33,882 nt of DNA from Polyangiales bacterium (GTDB lineage: Bacteria; Myxococcota_A; Polyangia; Polyangiales; Houyiibacteriaceae): assembly GCA_045106895.1 (NCBI GenBank), contig JBGCFM010000210.1, forward strand, positions 1 to 33,882. Reading direction: 5' to 3'. Shown in pieces: positions 1 to 6,000 of this stretch (within the stretch, counting starts at the first letter, position 1; each line of letters opens with the position of its first letter). The position numbers are program-made.

Positions 1-3000
1 CCCGAAAGGAGGAGCGCCGACGCTTCATTCTCATCTTTCGAGTGGCAAGTTCACCATGCATGTCGGAGCTGCTCACTTCTCTATTGCGCGATGGAGGTAC
101 GCCGGGACGGGAGAGACCTTGTGTCGCCGCAAGGGGCGGCGACACAAGCCAGCCGAATGGCCTTGGGCCCACGCGGGCCCACCCCGAACCGGACGGACTT
201 AGAGAGCGAATTCCGAGACGGAACCCCGAGCGGATCACAGAGACCCAGCGAAGCGTTGTGCCCGCCCCGAACCGAACGTGATTCCTGGAGCCGAATTCGA
301 CAGGAAAACAGGAGCCAGCGAAGTGTCGCCTACTCCCCGAGAACTTTCATGAGTCCCGCCTCGTCGACAATCGTGATGCCGAGGCCCTCCGCCTTGTCGA
401 GCTTCGAGCCGGCGTCTGTTCCGACGAAGAGGATGTCTACGTTCTTCGAGACTCCACTTCGCACAGTGGCCCCAAGGGCCGTGAGCTTCAGCTCCGCTTC
501 TTTGCGCTTGATCCCCATTTTACCGGTGACGCAGACGTTCTTTCCGCTCACCGACGTGACCTTGCCCTTCGCGAGACTCTTAGCCTTGGTCACCTTCGCT
601 TCCTTGGCGTCCTTCGCTTTCTTGACGACCTCTTTCGCCTTCGACGCCGCCTTCGCGCCACCGCCCGCAAGGATCGTCATCAGGGCTTCTTCATCCATGA
701 TCTCAATGCCGAGCTGTTGCGCTTTGGCGAGCTTCGAGCCTGCATCGGTTCCAACGAAGAGGATGTCCACGTTCTTGGAGACGCCGCTCTTGACCGTCGC
801 GCCGAGTTCCGTGAGCTGCGCTTCCGCCAGGGAGCGCTTGATCTCCATCTTGCCCGTCACGCATACCGATTTTCCTGAAACGCTCATCGCCAATCCCCCT
901 GTTTGTTCGGCTCTCTTGAGTGCGGCCGACTTGTCCGGAGGGAGCATACAAGCTGCGGGCTCCTCGCCGCTAGGCTTGAGCCGCGCGCATGCCCTAGAGT
1001 TGGGTTGTGCATCGACCTCTCGGACGAAAGGCGTACACGTCGATCCCGCACCTGCCGGGTTCGCGAACTGCCGGAGACCGTCACATCTCACTTCGCCAAG
1101 CCGAACGTCTGACGTGTGAGGCGCCTCGCGGTTTCGAGGTCGTGGTGCAAGAGAAGCTCGACGGTTCGTGCGTAGCGGCGGCGCGAATCGGCGACGACAT
1201 CGTTGCACTGGGCCGAGCAGGCGACCTGGCGGCGGAGTCACGCAACGCGGGCCGGCGCTTGTGGGCTGCCTGGGTCCACGAGCATCAAGGGCGCTTTCGA
1301 GCGTTGCTTCGGCCGGGGGAGCGGCTTGTCGGAGAGTGGCTGGCCCTCGCGCATTCCACTCACTATTCCCTCGTCCATGAGCCTTTCGTCGCCTTCGATC
1401 TGATGAGCGAGGCTGAACGCCTGACGTCGCTGGCGCTTGGACGGCGACTCCGGCAGACTGGCTTTTGTCTGCCTCACGAAGTTCACCGAGGGGATGCACT
1501 GGCCGTTCCCGCGGCCCTCACGATGCTAGGCCATGGCGGCCACGGCGCGATGGAGCCGCCCGAAGGGCTCGTCTATCGCTTGGAGTCCGAGGGAGCCGTG
1601 GCCCTCATCGCAAAACACGTTCGCCCGGGGAAGGTCGATGGCAGCCTTCTCGAGGAAAACACGGGGAAACCGCCGGTCTGGAACTGGCATCCCGACTTCA
1701 ATGAGCCTCGATGATCCACTTCATCACATCCAACCGAAAGCGCGCTGAACTCGAACTCCTCTTAGGAGGGCTGCCGCTGTCGTTTACGCGCCTGACCCTT
1801 CCACGGCCGTCGGCGGCGTTGCTCGCAGAGCGGGCACAAGAGCGCGCCGCCTCCGCATTCGCCGAGTTAGGTCAAGGATGCATCGCAGAGGTGACGGAGC
1901 TTCGCACCGCGGCCGGGGGCTTCAGTGGCGCGGACTACAAGAAGGCTCTCGAGCGCGAAGGCGACGAGTTTCACGCACGCATCGCAGGCCCCGCCGTCGC
2001 CGCCGTTGCTGTGGCGTACGTCGACGGCGAACAAACCCTCGTCTTCGAGGGGGCTCTTCACGGCGAGCTCTTGGCCGAACCTCGCGGAAGCGGGGGCATC
2101 GGTTGGGACGGTACATTTCAACCCGAAGACACGACGCAGACCTTGGCGGAGATGCGGCACCACAAGAGCTTCACGAACATGCGCTTGCGGCCTTTTCTTG
2201 AGCTCGCGGACGCACTTCGCGGACGTTCCTTTGGCGGCGTCTTCGAAGCGCATATCACCGTGGCACTCGTAGGAGAGGAGGAGCTCGTTCGCTTCGATGC
2301 GCTCTGCTCGGACCTCGCCGTGAAGTCGATCCATATCGTCCTTCCAAGAGGAGAGATTCGTTTTCAGCCAATGACGAGTAGCTACCATCATGGAGAGCTC
2401 CTCGCCGTTCAGGGTGAAGTGTTTGAGCTGGCGAGGCGCATCGCTGGCGCTGGTTTTGAAGTTACGCGTGCGAAGATCGAAGCCACCGGGAGCAACCGGG
2501 AGATTCCTCAGAGCGACGCGGATGCGGAGAGCTTTCCTCACAACTACTTCGAGTTTCACGTCAAGACGCGCATCGCGCCCAGCGCGGACGCCGGCAAGTT
2601 GGCAGAAGCGGTGAGCCTTCACGGCGCGCACCTCTCGCGCAACGCACGAAAGGTCTTCGCCGACGGGACTCGTCAGCACTTCGTGACGCTGCGGGTGTAT
2701 GAAGCGGGACGTCGCCGTGCCGAAGAGCGCTTCGCGACGCTGCGCGACGCGATTCAACAGGCCGGTTTCGAATGGCGTGAGCCGATTCGTGAGTACACGG
2801 TCTACGATTCAAACGTTAGTGTGGACAAAGGATGGCTCCCGACCTGAAAGAAGCCGCGATGCTCGCCATCGTTGATAGCGCCGCGAGGACGTCGTCGGAG
2901 GTGTTCATCCTTCGCGGTGGGCTCGTCATGCGAGACCTCATCGCGCCACTCCGTCGACCCGTCGATGACGTCGACTTCCTCGCGCTGTGCAGCGACGCCG

Positions 3001-6000
3001 AGGCCCGCGAGCGATTGAGTCTTCTCGCTCAACGCAGCGGAGACTTCGAACTCAGCCTTGGTCCCATCGAGCGTATTTGGGAAGAGACGGAGTTTCCCGG
3101 ACTGCGAACTCAATGCACGGCGAGGGGACTCGGCGGAGCGCTCGTCGTGCAGATCGACGTCGGCTTTGGTGACCCAAGAGCGGCGCCGGAGAGGCAGCTG
3201 AAACTCCCTGGAGCCCACGAGGCGATCGCGGCCGTCGCTCTTGAGACCATGCTCGCTTGGAAGATTCACGGCATCTTCGAGCGAGGCGACGGTGCGTGGC
3301 GCGCGAAGGACTTGATCGATGTGCACGACCTGGCGGAGCGCTGCGTGGATGAGGCCACAGCGGTGCGTTGTTTGGCGTTGGCGTTTGAGTCGCGGAGCGA
3401 CGACTTTTCGATCTGTGAGCGCTTCCTCTGCGGGGACTGGGGCACCAGTCGCGGCAGCCGGCGCAAGTGGCGTCAGTTTCGCCGCAGGCGGACGGAGTTC
3501 GACGCGACGCGTTGCTTCCCCGAGGACCTACAGGACTTTGTTGAGGCTCTGCGAGGACAGGTGGGAGCCCTCATCGCCGCCGCCTCACATTTGCCTCACA
3601 TAACGAGAGACCCACTGTAAGCCACGGCATTCTTCGGCGTTTGAGTCGTATGAACGCCCGACTCTTCTGGTTTTTGCTCCTCTGCGCCTGTGGAGCTTCG
3701 ATGAGCCCCCAATCGACACGATTCGCCGGCGGCATGGCCTACGACGAGGAGTCAGCTGCCTCCATGGGAGGAGCCAGCGCGCCGGCGGCGGAGGAAGAGG
3801 GCGACGTCAGCGGGAGTGCGCCACAGAGCTGGCGTCGGCACACGGAGCAAGCGACCTTCGCGCAGGTATCGCTGGGCGGAGGCCACACTCTGGAGCTTCG
3901 GGACGTGCGCGTTTCCGTTCGTGTGGAAGGTCATAGGGCGCGCACCGTTGTCGACCATGTCTTCTACAACCCCCACGCGCGAACTCTCGAGGGCACCTTT
4001 CGCTACTCGCTCCCGCCGGAGGCGACGGTGTCGGGCTACGCGATGTTCCTCGGCACAGGAAGCGAGCAGCCTTCGTTCTTTGGCGACGACGACGAGCAAG
4101 CGATGCGCCGGCGGGAGGCGGCACTCCAAGGAGGCAGCGTCGAGGCGCTGACGCAGTCCGTCGATGAGCGTGACTGGGGCCAGCTTCGCGTGGGGCGCTT
4201 CGTTCGCGCGCAGCAGGGACGTGAAGTGTATGAGAACACGACGAGGCGTAACGTCGACCCAGCGCTGGCGGAGACCGTGGGGCCCAACAGCTTCGAAGCC
4301 CGGGTCTTTCCCATCCAGGCCAACGCCTACCATCGCGTCATCGTCAGCTACGAGCAGACGCTCCCGCGCCTCGGTGACGAACTCGAGTATCTCTTTCCAA
4401 TGCCTGAGGGCGAACTCTCCTCCTTGGACTTCTTGCTTCAGGCAGATGGACAAAGCGTGCGCTCTTTGCGTTACACCGGCGACGTTCGCGGTCACGCCCT
4501 CGGCACCTTCGAGCACCACGTTCGCGTGGAGGGGAACACGCAGCCCGGAGCGCTCTCGTATCGCTTCGGTGTGCGCCATCAGAACGGCGTTGAGGCGCTC
4601 GTAGGCACGGACCCCGTCACGAGCGTGAGCCACTTCGCCCTGCGCGTATCCGCCGACGACACGCTCGGTGGCAACACATCGACGGCTTCCAGCGACGCCG
4701 TTTTTCTCCTCGACACCTCTCTCTCGGAGCACCCGGATCGCTTCAGCATCGATGTCGCGCTTCTTCAGGCCATTCTTCGCGACAACTCGCGCATTCGGAG
4801 GTTCAACGTCGTCACCTTCGACGCCGGCGCGCGCTGGCTCTCGTCCGAGTGGTTGCCAAACTCGGAACAAGGGCGTGCCCGGGCCATGTCGACCATCGAC
4901 GAGGTCCTTCTCGAAGGGGCAACGGACCTCTCCGCCGCGCTCTCCACGCTTCACGCGCCGCCCATGAACGCGAGCGAGAGCGTCGATGTCTTTCTCTTGA
5001 GCGACGGAGCCATCACCTGGGGAGAGCGAGACATCGCGACGCTTGTCGCTCCGCGGCAGTCGCCTTGGAACACAATGCGCACCTTCGCGTACCGCACAGG
5101 CCTGGGCGCGGAGAACACAGATCTGCTCCGTCGCGTCGCGCCGGAAGGGGTCTTCAACTGTCTCTCCATGGACAGCGTCCCAGGCTGCGCCGCGGCTCAC
5201 AACCGTCAGGCGATGCGCATCGAGAGCGTGAGCGTGGAAGGCGTCGGCGAGGGCGCTGAAACCGAAGACGTCCTCATCGCCGGAGGCGCCTCGACCTTCG
5301 CGCCGGGCACGGAGCTCGTCGTTGTGGGTCGCCTTCGCCGACCCGGCGCCGCGCGACTTCGCATTCGTGGTCGCCTCGCCGGACGCGCGATGGAGTGGAC
5401 ACGTTCGGTTCAGCTGCAGCCTACCGGCGAACTCGCGTCGCGCGCATGGGCGGAGGTAGCCGTGGCGCACCTGCTGAGCGGCGGGGACTACTCCCAGGAA
5501 GGTCGCGCGCGCGAAGACCTCGCCGTGTCCATTGGTCAGCACTACCGTGTCCCTTCGCGGGTCACTTCGGTTCTTGTCCTCGAGACAGACGCCGAGTACG
5601 AACAGCACGAGCTCCAGGCAGAGTTTAGCCAATGGAGCCCGGAGACCGTCCCATCCGCGCAGGTGCGCACCTCCTGGAGCCGGCTTCGTCGCGCGCTGGA
5701 AGACGGGGAGAGCCACAACCGTTTGGCGCAGCTCGAAGACGGCCGGATCCTCCGCGAGCTCTCACGCATCGTATCTCAGCGTCCGCGTGCCTTCATTGGA
5801 ACCCCCCGCGACGTACCCCTTGTTCTGCGCTCGGATGTCGGGCGCCGCTATCGCCGCGGGATCACGCGGGACGCGGACAGCGTCGAGCACTTTCGAGATG
5901 AAGCCATTCGGCGGCACGCCGAAGGTCAGACCGGGGCCGCGATCCGCGCGCTCTCGAGTAGCGTGGAGAACGCTCCGACCTCGGCCGAGGTCGCTCGCTC

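What a model noticed while it worked through the whole genome (the two positions that open the first line are those of the whole stretch)
1145..3620. Three-gene AbiE-type module: RNA ligase + ITPase-fused AbiEi-like protein + AbiEii nucleotidyltransferase
Three overlapping genes 6 kb from the tRNA array encode a minimal RNA ligase (g02835), a protein that joins a Ham1/ITPase-type NTP pyrophosphatase to the domain that pairs with AbiEii toxins (g02836), and an AbiEii nucleotidyltransferase (g02837); in metagenomes the ligase accompanies only the ITPase-fused form. Boldest reading: an AbiE/MenT-like toxin-antitoxin (or defence) system aimed at tRNA 3' ends in which the antidote is enzymatic - it starves or corrects the toxin's nucleotide chemistry with the pyrophosphatase and mends RNA with the ligase - rather than a mere binder or repressor. 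New would be an antitoxin with its own catalytic repair arm, present in cultured Myxococcus and so test [...]
Evidence so far: Gene order C125:1145-1714, 1711-2847, 2832-3620 (+), overlaps of 4 and 16 nt. g02835 Pfam RNA_ligase PF09414 E 8e-13 (189 aa); g02836 Ham1p_like 3-157 (E 8e-14) plus PADLOC AbiEi model PDLC02277 at 178-376 (E 4e-61, model 2-193 of 195); g02837 PADLOC AbiEii PDLC02319 E 3e-56, Pfam AbiEii E 5e-19. Homologs: 104 clusters; about 50 of 370-400 aa carry PF01725 incl. Myxococcus stipitatus, M. faecalis, Hyalangium, Pyxidicoccus ('non-canonical purine NTP pyrophosphatase'), the rest are mostly 215-270-aa proteins matching only the C-terminal domain. In a 13-row alignment the ITPase signature residues T6, N8, K10, E13 are invariant or nearly so. 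Metagenome loci: fused form 18 loci - AbiEii directly [...]
(Added by a program. Inside this text positions count along the whole contig: contig position 1 is position 1 of the stretch shown here. "Call 12" and the like, gene names such as g00115 and contig names such as C1 are that model's own, and its searches are not shown. The text may have been shortened before it was handed on; [...] marks where a part breaks off. The agent that wrote the report below was given it as the finding of a first reader that could run no searches.)

Follow-up and report, generated by a model that had tools for sequence, protein, structure and literature searches.

The report
RNA ligase, dead-ITPase partner, AbiEii operon
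Three overlapping genes encode an RNA ligase, an uncharacterised enzyme-like protein carrying a probably inactive ITPase domain, and an AbiEii-type nucleotidyltransferase, which seem to work together on RNA ends rather than as a simple poison and antidote.

Summary
The three genes and all domain calls are real. Four points need correction.

1. The ligase gene starts at GTG 1007, not 1145. The extra 46 residues are conserved in all 22 homologues.
2. The Ham1/ITPase domain keeps its nucleotide-binding residues but lacks the catalytic Asp: 0 of 71 sequences have it. This resembles the dITP sensor KomB.
3. The ligase is not limited to the ITPase-fused form. 8 of 22 ligase-bearing loci lack the domain.
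4. Nearness to the tRNA array is chance. 0 of 22 ligase-bearing loci have a tRNA within 6 kb.

The ancient core is a pair: an uncharacterised tandem ferredoxin-like domain plus an intact AbiEii nucleotidyltransferase. They are adjacent in 78 of 80 loci across several phyla. The domain family has 2455 representatives.

This domain is more conserved than the supposed toxin. It occurs fused to AbiEii, to an RNA ligase and to RNase Z. One 1398-aa protein carries all four domains. The Ser/Thr that regulates MenT toxins is missing (3 of 76).

Best reading (0.45): a cooperative tRNA/RNA 3'-end healing, extending and sealing module. Main rival (0.35): a sensor-gated toxin-antitoxin or abortive-infection system. 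No activity has been shown.

The parts
1007..1714 (+). Minimal ATP-dependent RNA ligase, 235 aa, with revised start at GTG 1007. Motifs present: I EKLDGS (Lys50), III GEWL, IV EGLVYR, V AKHVRPGK.
   Evidence: Pfam PF09414 E 6.7e-15. The N-terminal 46 residues are conserved in 22 homologues. 65 invariant columns in 13 sequences. There is no start codon between 1007 and 1142 in this frame.
1711..2226 (+). Ham1/ITPase-like N-terminal domain of the 378-aa protein (residues 1-172). Nucleotide-binding residues are kept and the catalytic Asp is replaced by Val61.
   Evidence: Pfam Ham1p_like E 7.7e-14. AF2 model pLDDT 92.7, with Foldseek hits to ITPA and KomB at E 1e-11. The family profile is closest to KomB, E 8.3e-26. 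The Asp column holds T27 V13 N13 A10 S2 L2 E2 Q1 R1, with no D and no H.
2230..2847 (+). C-terminal tandem ferredoxin-like domain (residues 174-378), an uncharacterised family labelled 'AbiEi' by PADLOC. Invariant residues: E179, H181, T183, R253, K255, E257, Y279, F280, E281, H283, K285, S309, N311, F324, T326, R328, E361, D366, D372, G374, W375.
   Evidence: PADLOC PDLC02277 E 4.4e-61. No Pfam family. AF2 pLDDT 92.3, two beta-alpha-beta-beta-alpha-beta units. No specific structural relative. The two halves are related: hhalign probability 82%, E 1e-5. 2455 representatives in the family.
2832..3620 (+). AbiEii/MenT-family (DUF1814) nucleotidyltransferase, 262 aa, with intact catalytic motifs: LRGG, R42, D46xD48, D109, K144, K159-D160-x-x-D163.
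   Evidence: Pfam AbiEii E 4.7e-19 and PADLOC PDLC02319 E 3.3e-56. Best PDB match by sequence is AbiGII 9hlo, E 1.9e-5. Invariant columns in 33 and in 77 sequences.

Best explanation
The three genes form one translationally coupled operon. Its products most likely cooperate on RNA 3' ends, probably tRNA acceptor ends, as a heal, extend and seal (repair or editing) module used in biological conflicts. A classical poison-and-antidote pair is less likely.

Shown by sequence and comparison:
- The core is an ancient pair: an uncharacterised tandem ferredoxin-like domain protein plus a catalytically intact AbiEii/MenT-family nucleotidyltransferase.
- One Myxococcota clade added a dedicated minimal ATP-dependent RNA ligase, and in most members an N-terminal Ham1 domain that has lost its catalytic Asp.
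- The same four domains recur fused in single polypeptides.

Inferred steps:
1. The C-domain binds a blocked or aberrant RNA 3' end and heals or trims it. Its two pseudo-symmetric strands carry E-x-H-x-T and E-x-H-x-K motifs, next to R-x-K-x-E and T-x-R.
2. The nucleotidyltransferase adds nucleotide(s) to the freed 3'-OH.
3. The ligase seals a 3'-OH/5'-phosphate nick.
4. The degenerate Ham1 domain binds a purine (d)NTP without hydrolysing it, and regulates or gates the complex.
For: Operon structure:
- The genes overlap by 4 and 16 nt.

The pair is conserved:
- An AbiEii gene lies on the same strand downstream of the C-domain gene in 78 of 80 related loci from Myxococcota, Cyanobacteriota, Planctomycetota, Actinomycetota, Abditibacteriota and others. 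The two misses are L032, whose DNA ends 51 nt after the domain, and L074.

The partner looks like an enzyme:
- 31 invariant columns in 38 sequences, rich in His, Lys, Arg, Glu and Asp on alternating strand positions.
- Mean column identity is 44%, against 31% for the nucleotidyltransferase.

Fusions:
- C-domain + AbiEii in 9 of 140 new representatives.
- AbiEii + Ham1 + C-domain in 3.
- RNA ligase + C-domain in 1 (P0138).
- RNase Z + C-domain (P0180; NF000805 E 5e-121; seen in two assemblies).
- AbiEii + Ham1 + C-domain + RNA ligase in one 1398-aa protein (P0215). Its domain order differs from the operon, so it is not a simple read-through.
- One multidomain member comes from a Prymnesium (alga) assembly.

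The ligase belongs to the module:
- In a 401-genome phylum sample, the close ligase (E < 1e-70) occurs in 5 genomes. In each it lies on the same contig as the C-domain gene, 0.1-0.7 kb from it, a gap that fits a short spacer, the Ham1 domain or the AbiEii gene. It is never found without the C-domain.
- All 23 ligase- or Ham1-bearing rows form one supported clade, 96/92.

The nucleotidyltransferase is intact but not MenT-like in regulation:
- Catalytic residues are invariant.
- The MenT1 T39-type phospho-acceptor position holds Ser/Thr in only 3 of 76 sequences (position taken from PMC11375011 passages).

Family chemistry:
- Characterised family members act on tRNA 3' ends (MenT papers: listing, passages).
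Against: - No activity of any of the four domains has been measured.
- No 5'-kinase is identified, so a full heal-and-seal pathway for 2',3'-cyclic-phosphate and 5'-OH breaks is not accounted for.
- All characterised AbiEii/MenT enzymes are toxins.
- The bicistronic layout, the patchy distribution (close C-domain in 6 of 401 genomes of the phylum) and PADLOC's AbiE label fit a toxin-antitoxin module equally well.
- The fusion proteins are single or few predicted proteins from short metagenome contigs. I could not inspect them as DNA.
- Most family members (105 of 140 representatives; 56 of 79 loci in the tree) have neither ligase nor Ham1.
Confidence: 0.45

Rival explanations
1. A true toxin-antitoxin or abortive-infection system of the AbiE/MenAT kind. 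The AbiEii enzyme poisons translation by extending tRNA 3' ends. The C-domain protein is its cognate antitoxin of a new family. The dead Ham1 domain is a sensor that binds an alarm nucleotide such as (d)ITP and releases the toxin. The ligase resets or limits RNA damage.
For: - AbiEii family membership with intact catalytic motifs.
- The partner lies upstream in an overlapping bicistron.
- PADLOC AbiE models match both genes.
- Distribution is patchy and genomic contexts vary.
- The Ham1 domain is closest to KomB (E 8.3e-26). It shares KomB's loss of the catalytic Asp while keeping binding residues. KomB is a catalytically dead dITP sensor (bioRxiv 10.1101/2024.12.20.629578, passages).
- Distant relatives of the ligase sit as third genes behind PADLOC candidate defence pairs PDC-M07 and HEC-03. 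An ABC ATPase is adjacent in 6 of 7 such loci.
Against: - The phospho-acceptor Ser/Thr used for neutralisation in MenT1, MenT3 and AbiEii is absent (3 of 76).
- The 'antitoxin' is more conserved than the 'toxin' and has no DNA-binding domain.
- Toxin, partner, Ham1 and ligase occur fused in single proteins, including eukaryote-like ones.
- Only 7 of 136 flanking proteins in 24 loci hit PADLOC at E <= 1e-12, and 0 of 39 in the 7 Myxococcota loci.
- The Ham1 domain has been lost repeatedly while the ligase stayed.
- KomB-clade hallmarks are missing: no His at the Asp site (0 of 71), and no Pfam or PADLOC model for a SIR2 protein matched any window ORF scanned.
Confidence: 0.35
2. A nucleotide-signal module. 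The AbiEii-type nucleotidyltransferase makes or modifies a nucleotide-derived small molecule. The C-domain and the Ham1 domain bind or process it. RNA is not the main substrate.
For: - The C-domain's recurrent partners all handle nucleotides: Ham1, the nucleotidyltransferase, and a SLOG/LOG gene directly upstream in one AT-rich contig (L104).
- The strand motifs rich in Glu, His, Lys and Arg would suit phosphate binding.
Against: - The dedicated RNA ligase and the RNase Z and ligase fusions point to polynucleotide ends.
- Known AbiEii/MenT enzymes use tRNA as acceptor (listing, passages).
- The SLOG link is a single locus.
Confidence: 0.1
3. Ordinary housekeeping genes that merely lie side by side: an ITPase, a ligase and a stray nucleotidyltransferase with no joint function.
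For: Public records name the fused homologues 'non-canonical purine NTP pyrophosphatase'.
Against: - Adjacency is conserved in 78 of 80 loci.
- The ligase is exclusive to the module.
- Domain fusions exist.
- The catalytic Asp is missing, while the genome has a separate canonical RdgB on contig C142.
- The genes overlap.
Confidence: 0.03

Closest known systems
AbiE (AbiEi/AbiEii) type IV toxin-antitoxin / abortive infection system (Streptococcus agalactiae, Lactococcus)
   Same: - A DUF1814/AbiEii nucleotidyltransferase with the four catalytic motifs.
- A bicistronic operon with the partner gene upstream.
- PADLOC files both genes under AbiE.
   Different: - The partner is not AbiEi. It has no winged-helix domain and no Pfam AbiEi match, and it folds as a tandem ferredoxin-like domain with enzyme-like invariant residues.
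- The regulatory Ser/Thr is absent.
- A ligase and a Ham1 domain are attached.
- Fused single-chain forms exist.
MenAT systems of Mycobacterium tuberculosis (MenT tRNA 3'-end nucleotidyltransferase toxins)
   Same: - The same enzyme superfamily.
- tRNA 3' ends are a plausible shared substrate, supported here only indirectly by an RNase Z fusion of the partner domain.
   Different: - MenA antitoxins induce auto-phosphorylation of a Ser/Thr two residues before the DxD motif (PMC11375011 passages). That position here is Val44, and it is P/A/V/I in 73 of 76 sequences.
- No MenA-like partner is present.
KomB, the HAM1-like dITP sensor of the Kongming defence system
   Same: - Best PDB relative of the N-domain.
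- The catalytic Asp is lost while the T/N/K/E, GWD and Arg ligand-binding residues are kept.
- SHR is changed to xMR, as in KomB's SMR.
   Different: - The Asp is replaced by T, V, N or A, never by His (0 of 71). The KomB clade is reported to carry His invariably (passages).
- No Pfam or PADLOC model for SIR2 (KomC) or an adenosine deaminase (KomA) matched any window ORF scanned.
- The motif is FGWD-type rather than KomB's FQWD, so 2'-deoxy selectivity is not predicted.
RNA heal-and-seal repair systems (phage T4 Pnkp + Rnl1, bacterial Pnkp1-Rnl-Hen1, fungal Trl1)
   Same: - An ATP-dependent RNA ligase is tightly coupled to end-modifying enzymes.
- Distribution is patchy.
- Multi-enzyme fusions occur, as in Trl1.
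(Pnkp1-Rnl-Hen1: abstract only. T4 and Trl1 are recalled.)
   Different: - No P-loop polynucleotide kinase, no HD, calcineurin or 2H phosphoesterase, and no Hen1 methyltransferase.
- The end-modifying partners here are an AbiEii nucleotidyltransferase and a domain of unknown activity.
ELAC1 (RNase Z-type) plus CCA-adding enzyme repair of tRNA 3' ends
   Same: The logic matches: a 3'-end healing enzyme followed by a nucleotidyltransferase that rebuilds the acceptor end. The C-domain is found fused to a near-full-length RNase Z.
   Different: Known only from eukaryotic ribosome quality control. I saw the title in a reference list and recall the content. The enzymes are unrelated to AbiEii and the C-domain. 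The resemblance is an analogy and has not been tested.

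Membership tests
AbiE (AbiEi/AbiEii) system | DUF1814/AbiEii nucleotidyltransferase with motifs hG[GS], DxD, a third Asp, a catalytic Lys and KDxxD | tested here: met
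   Pfam AbiEii E 4.7e-19 and PADLOC PDLC02319 E 3.3e-56. LRG, D46xD48, D109, K144 and K159-D160-x-x-D163 are invariant or nearly so in 33 and in 77 sequences.
AbiE (AbiEi/AbiEii) system | AbiEi antitoxin: N-terminal winged helix-turn-helix plus a C-terminal antitoxicity domain (COG5340) | tested here: not met
   - P0002 matches only Ham1p_like in Pfam.
- The C-domain matches no Pfam family in 38 members.
- It folds as two beta-alpha-beta-beta-alpha-beta units.
- The PADLOC 'AbiEi' models PDLC02277 and PDLC02279 do match. These appear to be models of partner genes and carry no Pfam AbiEi signature.
AbiE / MenAT | Conserved Ser/Thr phospho-acceptor two residues before the DxD motif (MenT1 T39, MenT3 S78) | tested here: not met
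   Val44 in the window. Across 76 sequences the position holds P35 A19 V17 T3 I2. Position mapped from PMC11375011 passages.
AbiE / MenAT | Toxicity of the nucleotidyltransferase, neutralisation by the partner, phage protection | not testable with these tools
   This needs expression and phage assays.
HAM1 / ITPase (RdgB) pyrophosphatases | HAM1 fold and nucleotide-binding residues (T/N/K/E N-terminal motif, GWD, C-terminal Lys and Arg) | tested here: met
   Pfam E 7.7e-14. Foldseek hits to ITPA and KomB at E 1e-11, TMt 0.73-0.82. Of 77 aligned sequences, 70-71 of which have a residue in these N-terminal columns: T6 in 68, N8 in 69, K10 in 63, E13 in 69. W132 is present in 70 of 75, D133 in 74 of 75 and R158 in 74 of 75.
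HAM1 / ITPase (RdgB) pyrophosphatases | Catalytic Asp (ITPA D72; second Asp of the RdgB DD pair) | tested here: not met
   Val61 in the window, and 0 Asp among 71 sequences. Alignment to ITPA VEDT and KomB VEHT. The genome's own RdgB on contig C142 has ADDSG.
Defensive HAM1 (KomB clade, Kongming) | Asp replaced by His, with tight association to a SIR2 protein (KomC) | tested here: not met
   0 His among 71 sequences. No Pfam or PADLOC model for SIR2 matched any window ORF scanned; the flanks of the related loci were scanned against PADLOC only, without a SIR2 or Kongming hit. Criteria taken from bioRxiv 10.1101/2024.12.20.629578 passages.
ATP-dependent RNA ligases (PF09414, covalent nucleotidyltransferase superfamily) | Motifs I (KxDG), III, IV (EGxV) and V (K..K) in order | tested here: met
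   PF09414 at 56 bits against a cut-off of 27. EKLDG, GEWL, EG.V.R and AK.VR..K are invariant or nearly so in 13-23 sequences. Only weak similarity to any solved ligase (Naegleria RNA ligase, E 0.2). RNA versus DNA specificity is not testable here.
2H phosphoesterases (LigT / CPDase) | Two H-x-T/S-x motifs in a pseudo-symmetric bilobed fold | tested here: inconclusive
   - The C-domain has H181-I-T and H283-V-K on equivalent strands of its two repeats.
- hhalign against a 5-sequence LigT alignment gives probability 0.6%.
- Pfam LigT_PEase matches at E 0.4 in 1 of 38 members.
- PF02834 finds nothing in the window's genome.
- No LigT chain appears among the listed structural matches.
RNA heal-and-seal repair systems | Ligase plus a 5'-kinase plus a 2',3'-phosphoesterase | tested here: inconclusive
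   The ligase is present. No recognisable kinase or phosphoesterase family is found. The C-domain and the nucleotidyltransferase are candidates by context only.

The most novel reading that the evidence does not exclude
AbiEii/MenT-type nucleotidyltransferases are not only toxins. Here one is the extending step of a self-contained tRNA 3'-end repair machine with three other parts:
- a new double-ferredoxin, His/Lys-lined end-healing enzyme;
- a dedicated RNA ligase;
- a second, independently evolved dead-HAM1 nucleotide sensor.

The machine is encoded as an operon in Myxococcota and as a single four-domain polypeptide in algae. It would be a counter-measure to tRNA-end-targeting toxins.
Probability: 0.25. 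Interest if true: 0.85.

Novelty: new variant of a known kind. Interest (0 to 1): 0.62.

Why it matters
- PADLOC's AbiEi model PDLC02277 matches this partner domain over nearly its full length. The 505 or more species genomes that hold the pair are therefore probably labelled 'AbiE' by such tools (not tested here), although a defining AbiE component is missing and replaced by an uncharacterised, highly conserved domain family of 2455 representatives.
- If that domain is an RNA-end enzyme, it defines a new catalytic family and a new way of controlling or complementing MenT-like tRNA nucleotidyltransferases.
- The degenerate Ham1 domain would be a second lineage of HAM1 turned from hydrolase into nucleotide sensor, outside Kongming.
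- Dedicated minimal RNA ligases appear as third genes behind three different two-gene conflict modules (this one, PDC-M07 and HEC-03). This suggests a general 'damage RNA, then mend it' logic that can be tested in culturable Myxococcus species.

Tried and rejected
- Complex prediction of C-domain (A2) with AbiEii (A4): the queue was full, and searches were not sent on. The job ran. Result: no verdict, score 0.01. It gives no information either way.
- The search for related loci with the whole-protein alignment A1 failed because no conserved stretch was found. It was repeated with A2.
- The metagenome scan with the RNase Z-C-domain fusion P0180 returned 80 loci that match only the RNase Z part. 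None of the 80 holds a C-domain, AbiEii or ligase. The fusion's own contig was not recovered and its neighbours remain unknown.
- Viral contigs: only 2 distant C-domain loci (25-26% identity), both without AbiEii or ligase. The module is not a phage feature in that collection.
- Sequencing runs: no RNA holder is listed.
- Atlas look-up: only unnamed clusters and the fused forms.
- A PDB sequence search with the ligase profile gave nothing significant.
- Conserved neighbours beyond the three genes: none. The window's VIT-vWA, ATP-grasp, EndoV-like, Ro60, MFS and zf-PARP genes have 0 homologues in the 80 loci; the BRCT and methyltransferase genes have one each. All-against-all clustering found only lineage-local synteny.
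- Prophage context was rejected: the surrounding genes are chromosomal.
- Literature: searches found no paper in the held library that links AbiEii/DUF1814 with Ham1/ITPase, RNA ligase or RNase Z in one system. The comparative-genomics paper on RNA repair systems that I recalled (Burroughs and Aravind 2016) is not held. I could not check whether it describes this module.
- The search of earlier findings returned nothing.

Full report
**1. Observation**

The window has three co-oriented ORFs ending at 1714, 2847 and 3620. Their junctions are an ATGA overlap at 1711-1714 and a 16-nt overlap at 2832-2847.

- RNA_ligase PF09414.
- Ham1p_like at residues 3-157, E 7.7e-14.
- PADLOC 'AbiEi' PDLC02277 at 178-376, E 4.4e-61.
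- AbiEii by Pfam (4.7e-19) and by PADLOC (3.3e-56).

The homologue search again gives 104 clusters. Of these, 62 carry the N-terminal domain by my profile.

One coordinate is wrong. The ligase ORF opens at GTG 1007. The 46 residues this adds (HRPLGRKAYTSIPHLPGSR...DRH) are conserved in all 22 homologous ligases. A start at 1145 would put the motif-I lysine at residue 4.

The surrounding genes are chromosomal and not phage-like. They include a BRCT protein on the other strand, a VIT-vWA lipoprotein, a RimK-like ATP-grasp enzyme, a weak EndoV-like ORF, a Ro60/TROVE-vWA protein, ten tRNAs, a methyltransferase, a zf-PARP protein and transporters.

The assembly has 7.7 Mb in 288 contigs, and the stretch is held by metagenome runs. 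It is therefore not a cultured Myxococcus. The cultured species carry homologues at about 46-48% identity.

**2. The Ham1 domain is probably not a pyrophosphatase**

The AF2 model is confident (pLDDT 92.7). Its N-domain superposes on human ITPA and on KomB at E 1e-11. By sequence, the family profile is closest to KomB of the Kongming defence system (E 8.3e-26).

In the alignments to ITPA (VEDT) and KomB (VEHT), the catalytic Asp position is Val61 in the window. Across 77 family sequences, 71 have a residue there: T27, V13, N13, A10, S2, L2, E2, Q1, R1. None has Asp or His (the P-proteins and locus ORFs were not de-duplicated). The genome's own RdgB on contig C142 has ADDSG at this place.

The ligand-binding residues are kept: T6, N8, K10, E13, R/K45, E60, GWD, K152 and R158. 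The SHR motif has become xMR, as in KomB's SMR.

KomB was shown to bind dITP, to have lost hydrolysis, and to act as the sensor of an NADase (bioRxiv 10.1101/2024.12.20.629578, passages; PMC13454610, passages). A nucleotide-binding, regulatory role fits better. This is an inference, because loss of one residue does not prove inactivity.

**3. The C-terminal domain is the real partner and looks like an enzyme**

Modelled alone, it reaches pLDDT 92.3 and folds as two beta-alpha-beta-beta-alpha-beta units. The two halves are detectably related: hhalign probability 82%, E 1e-5, with FEAHITV aligned to FEFHVKT.

It has no Pfam family and no specific structural relative:
- Foldseek's best match is 2pgc at TM 0.30-0.32 and rmsd 15.
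- A 2H-phosphoesterase identity, suggested by the HxT and HxK strands, is not supported. hhalign against LigT gives probability 0.6%, and Pfam LigT matches at E 0.4 in 1 of 38 members.

The invariant residues form alternating strand motifs: E179-x-H181-x-T183, R253-x-K255-x-E257, Y279-F-E-x-H283-x-K285, S309-x-N311, F324-x-T326-x-R328, E361, D366, and D372-x-G-W.

The domain is more conserved than the nucleotidyltransferase it pairs with: mean column identity is 44% against 31%. That is unusual for an antitoxin.

The family is large. There are 2455 representatives at 50% identity, 588 of them at E <= 1e-30.

**4. Comparative anatomy**

I scanned the best 80 genome loci with profiles built from the window proteins.

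- *AbiEii.* An AbiEii gene follows the C-domain gene on the same strand in 78 of 80 loci. The misses are L032, whose DNA ends 51 nt after the domain, and L074. In L056 the gene is 1.7 kb away and split. In L022 and L035 it is split or fragmentary.
- *Ligase.* The ligase is present in 22 of 80 loci, all from Myxococcota.
- *Ham1 fusion.* The fusion is present in 15 of 80 loci. All 14 that have upstream DNA also have the ligase.
- *Ligase without Ham1.* 8 ligase-bearing loci have no Ham1 domain: L007, L009, L011, L018, L020, L028, L043 and L045.
- *Ham1 deletion.* Several of these short forms keep an 'FVTGN' stub that aligns to the first Ham1 strand (P0059, P0066, P0079). This suggests internal deletion of the domain.

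A maximum-likelihood tree of the C-domain has 79 rows. Two loci with split domain ORFs were left out. All 23 ligase- or Ham1-bearing rows fall in one clade with support 96/92, made only of Myxococcota. Ham1-less forms are scattered inside it.

In an even sample of 401 genomes of the phylum:
- The close C-domain (E < 1e-79) occurs in 6 genomes.
- The close ligase (E < 1e-70) occurs in 5 of those 6. In each it lies on the same contig, 0.1-0.7 kb from the C-domain gene, a gap that fits a short spacer, the Ham1 domain or the AbiEii gene. It is never found elsewhere.

Nothing else is conserved around the module. tRNA genes lie within 6 kb in 2 of 40 loci scanned, and in 0 of the 22 ligase-bearing loci. 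The tRNA array in the window is therefore a coincidence.

**5. The nucleotidyltransferase**

LRG, R42, D46xD48, D109, K144 and K159-D-x-x-D163 are invariant or nearly so in 33 and in 77 sequences. The enzyme should be active.

In MenT1, the antitoxin-induced auto-phosphorylation site is T39, two residues before D41xD43. A Ser/Thr there was reported as strictly conserved in related families (PMC11375011, passages). Here that position is Val44. Across 76 sequences it is P35, A19, V17, T3, I2. The known neutralisation mechanism therefore cannot apply.

**6. Fusions**

Among the 140 new representatives returned by the exhaustive search, my profiles give these architectures:

| Architecture | Representatives |
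|---|---|
| C-domain alone | 105 |
| Ham1 + C-domain | 22 |
| C-domain + AbiEii | 9 |
| AbiEii + Ham1 + C-domain | 3 |
| RNA ligase + C-domain | 1 |

Pfam on 51 long members agrees:
- Ham1p_like in 10 and AbiEii in 10.
- RNA_ligase in P0138 and P0215.
- A metallo-beta-lactamase domain in P0180. NCBIfam identifies it as a near-full-length ribonuclease Z (NF000805, E 5e-121, 403.6 bits against a cut-off of 416).

P0215 (1398 aa) carries AbiEii, Ham1, the C-domain and an RNA ligase in that order. The order differs from the operon, so it is not a read-through.

P0211 comes from a Prymnesium assembly, and P0180 has a second cluster member from another source. An Atlas cluster of 86 AbiEii proteins of about 482 aa also contains the domain.

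These are predicted proteins on short contigs, and I could not inspect their DNA. The metagenome scan for P0180 recovered only plain RNase Z genes.

**7. Context of the ligase family**

More distant PF09414 ligases occur in the same phylum (7 loci fetched). In 6 of these 7 loci they lie next to an ABC-type ATPase (AAA_15/AAA_21), in four of them with a small protein of 150-175 aa between the two. In the three loci scanned against PADLOC these pairs match its candidate systems PDC-M07 (L083, L084) and HEC-03 (L088). Minimal RNA ligases thus recur as third genes of conflict-type pairs.

On the other hand, the flanks of the AbiE-like module are not defence islands. Only 7 of 136 flanking proteins, in 5 of 24 loci, hit PADLOC at E <= 1e-12. 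In the 7 Myxococcota loci the count is 0 of 39. The window's own neighbours have no PADLOC hit.

**8. Interpretation**

Four observations favour a cooperating enzyme set acting on RNA 3' ends:
- The enzyme-like partner.
- The dedicated ligase.
- The RNase Z and ligase fusions.
- The missing regulatory Ser/Thr.

The proposed sequence is heal or trim (C-domain), extend (AbiEii-type enzyme), seal (ligase), with a nucleotide-binding Ham1 regulator. The MenT1 paper itself notes that RNase Z, RNase PH and CCA-adding enzymes are the expected repair route for tRNA 3' ends (PMC10435456, passages).

Against this, no activity is known, no kinase or recognised phosphoesterase is present, and every studied AbiEii relative is a toxin. 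The toxin-antitoxin or abortive-infection reading, with the dead Ham1 domain as a KomB-like sensor, remains a strong rival.

I put the two at 0.45 and 0.35.

**9. Novelty**

The module is already labelled AbiE by PADLOC, so it belongs to a known kind. Several features depart from AbiE/MenAT as described:
- The partner family.
- The loss of the phospho-acceptor.
- The degenerate Ham1 domain, from a lineage other than KomB.
- The dedicated ligase.
- The multi-domain fusions.

I found no paper in the held library that describes this combination. One possibly relevant comparative paper is not held.

Noticed in passing
window 8301-12362 (-): A Ro60/TROVE + vWA (Rsr-like) gene directly abuts a 10-gene tRNA array (ARAGORN). 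Rfam confirms only 7 of the 10. Three 76-nt 'tRNA-Leu' genes (anticodons taa, tag, caa) lack the long variable arm expected of bacterial tRNA-Leu (expectation recalled). A tRNA-Val(aac) is also present. The array looks non-canonical and might include Y-RNA-like or accessory tRNAs.
   Followed up: partly
window 6698-8222 (-): A RimK-like ATP-grasp gene and a weak Endonuclease V-like ORF (Pfam E 3.3e-6) lie between the module and the Ro60 gene. EndoV is inosine-specific (recalled), which echoes the ITPase-like domain. Neither gene recurs near the module in 80 related loci.
   Followed up: partly
L083-L089 (other genomes of the phylum): Distant PF09414 RNA ligases lie next to an ABC ATPase in 6 of 7 loci, in four of them with a 150-175-aa protein between the two. 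In the three loci scanned these pairs match PADLOC candidate systems PDC-M07 A/B (L083, L084) or HEC-03 A/B (L088). L083 lies beside a Cas_GSU0053 gene, and L084 beside SNF2/ResIII and PD-(D/E)XK genes. PADLOC has no model for the ligase as a third gene.
   Followed up: partly
proteins P0215, P0138, P0180, P0170, P0211: Multi-domain relatives of the C-domain:
- P0215: AbiEii-Ham1-C-domain-RNA ligase, 1398 aa, Ala-rich and eukaryote-like.
- P0138: RNA ligase-C-domain.
- P0180: RNase Z-C-domain.
- P0170: partial AbiEii-Ham1-C-domain.
- P0211: a Prymnesium (haptophyte) member.

   Followed up: partly
L104:4410-5651 (1.15-Mb AT-rich 'viral' contig) and L105: Distant C-domain genes (25-26% identity) occur without AbiEii. 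In L104 the gene directly follows a SLOG/LOG (Lysine_decarbox, LDcluster4) gene. The C-domain can therefore occur apart from the nucleotidyltransferase, next to another nucleotide-handling protein.
   Followed up: partly
window 1-1499: The + strand ORF 1-1119 has an atypical codon-position GC pattern (GC2 above GC1) and no family match. It is probably the shadow of a BRCT-domain gene on the - strand (330-1499 by its longest start, with BRCT domains near its C-terminus). As drawn, that gene would overlap the corrected ligase start, so its true start is probably further downstream on its strand, at a lower window coordinate.
   Followed up: no
window 3641-6685 (+): The VIT-vWA-TPR-DUF2135 protein begins 30 nt after the AbiEii stop. 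Its likely start is ATG 3650, followed by a lipoprotein-like signal (MNARLFWFLLLCAC). It is a secreted protein and is not conserved next to the module elsewhere.
   Followed up: no
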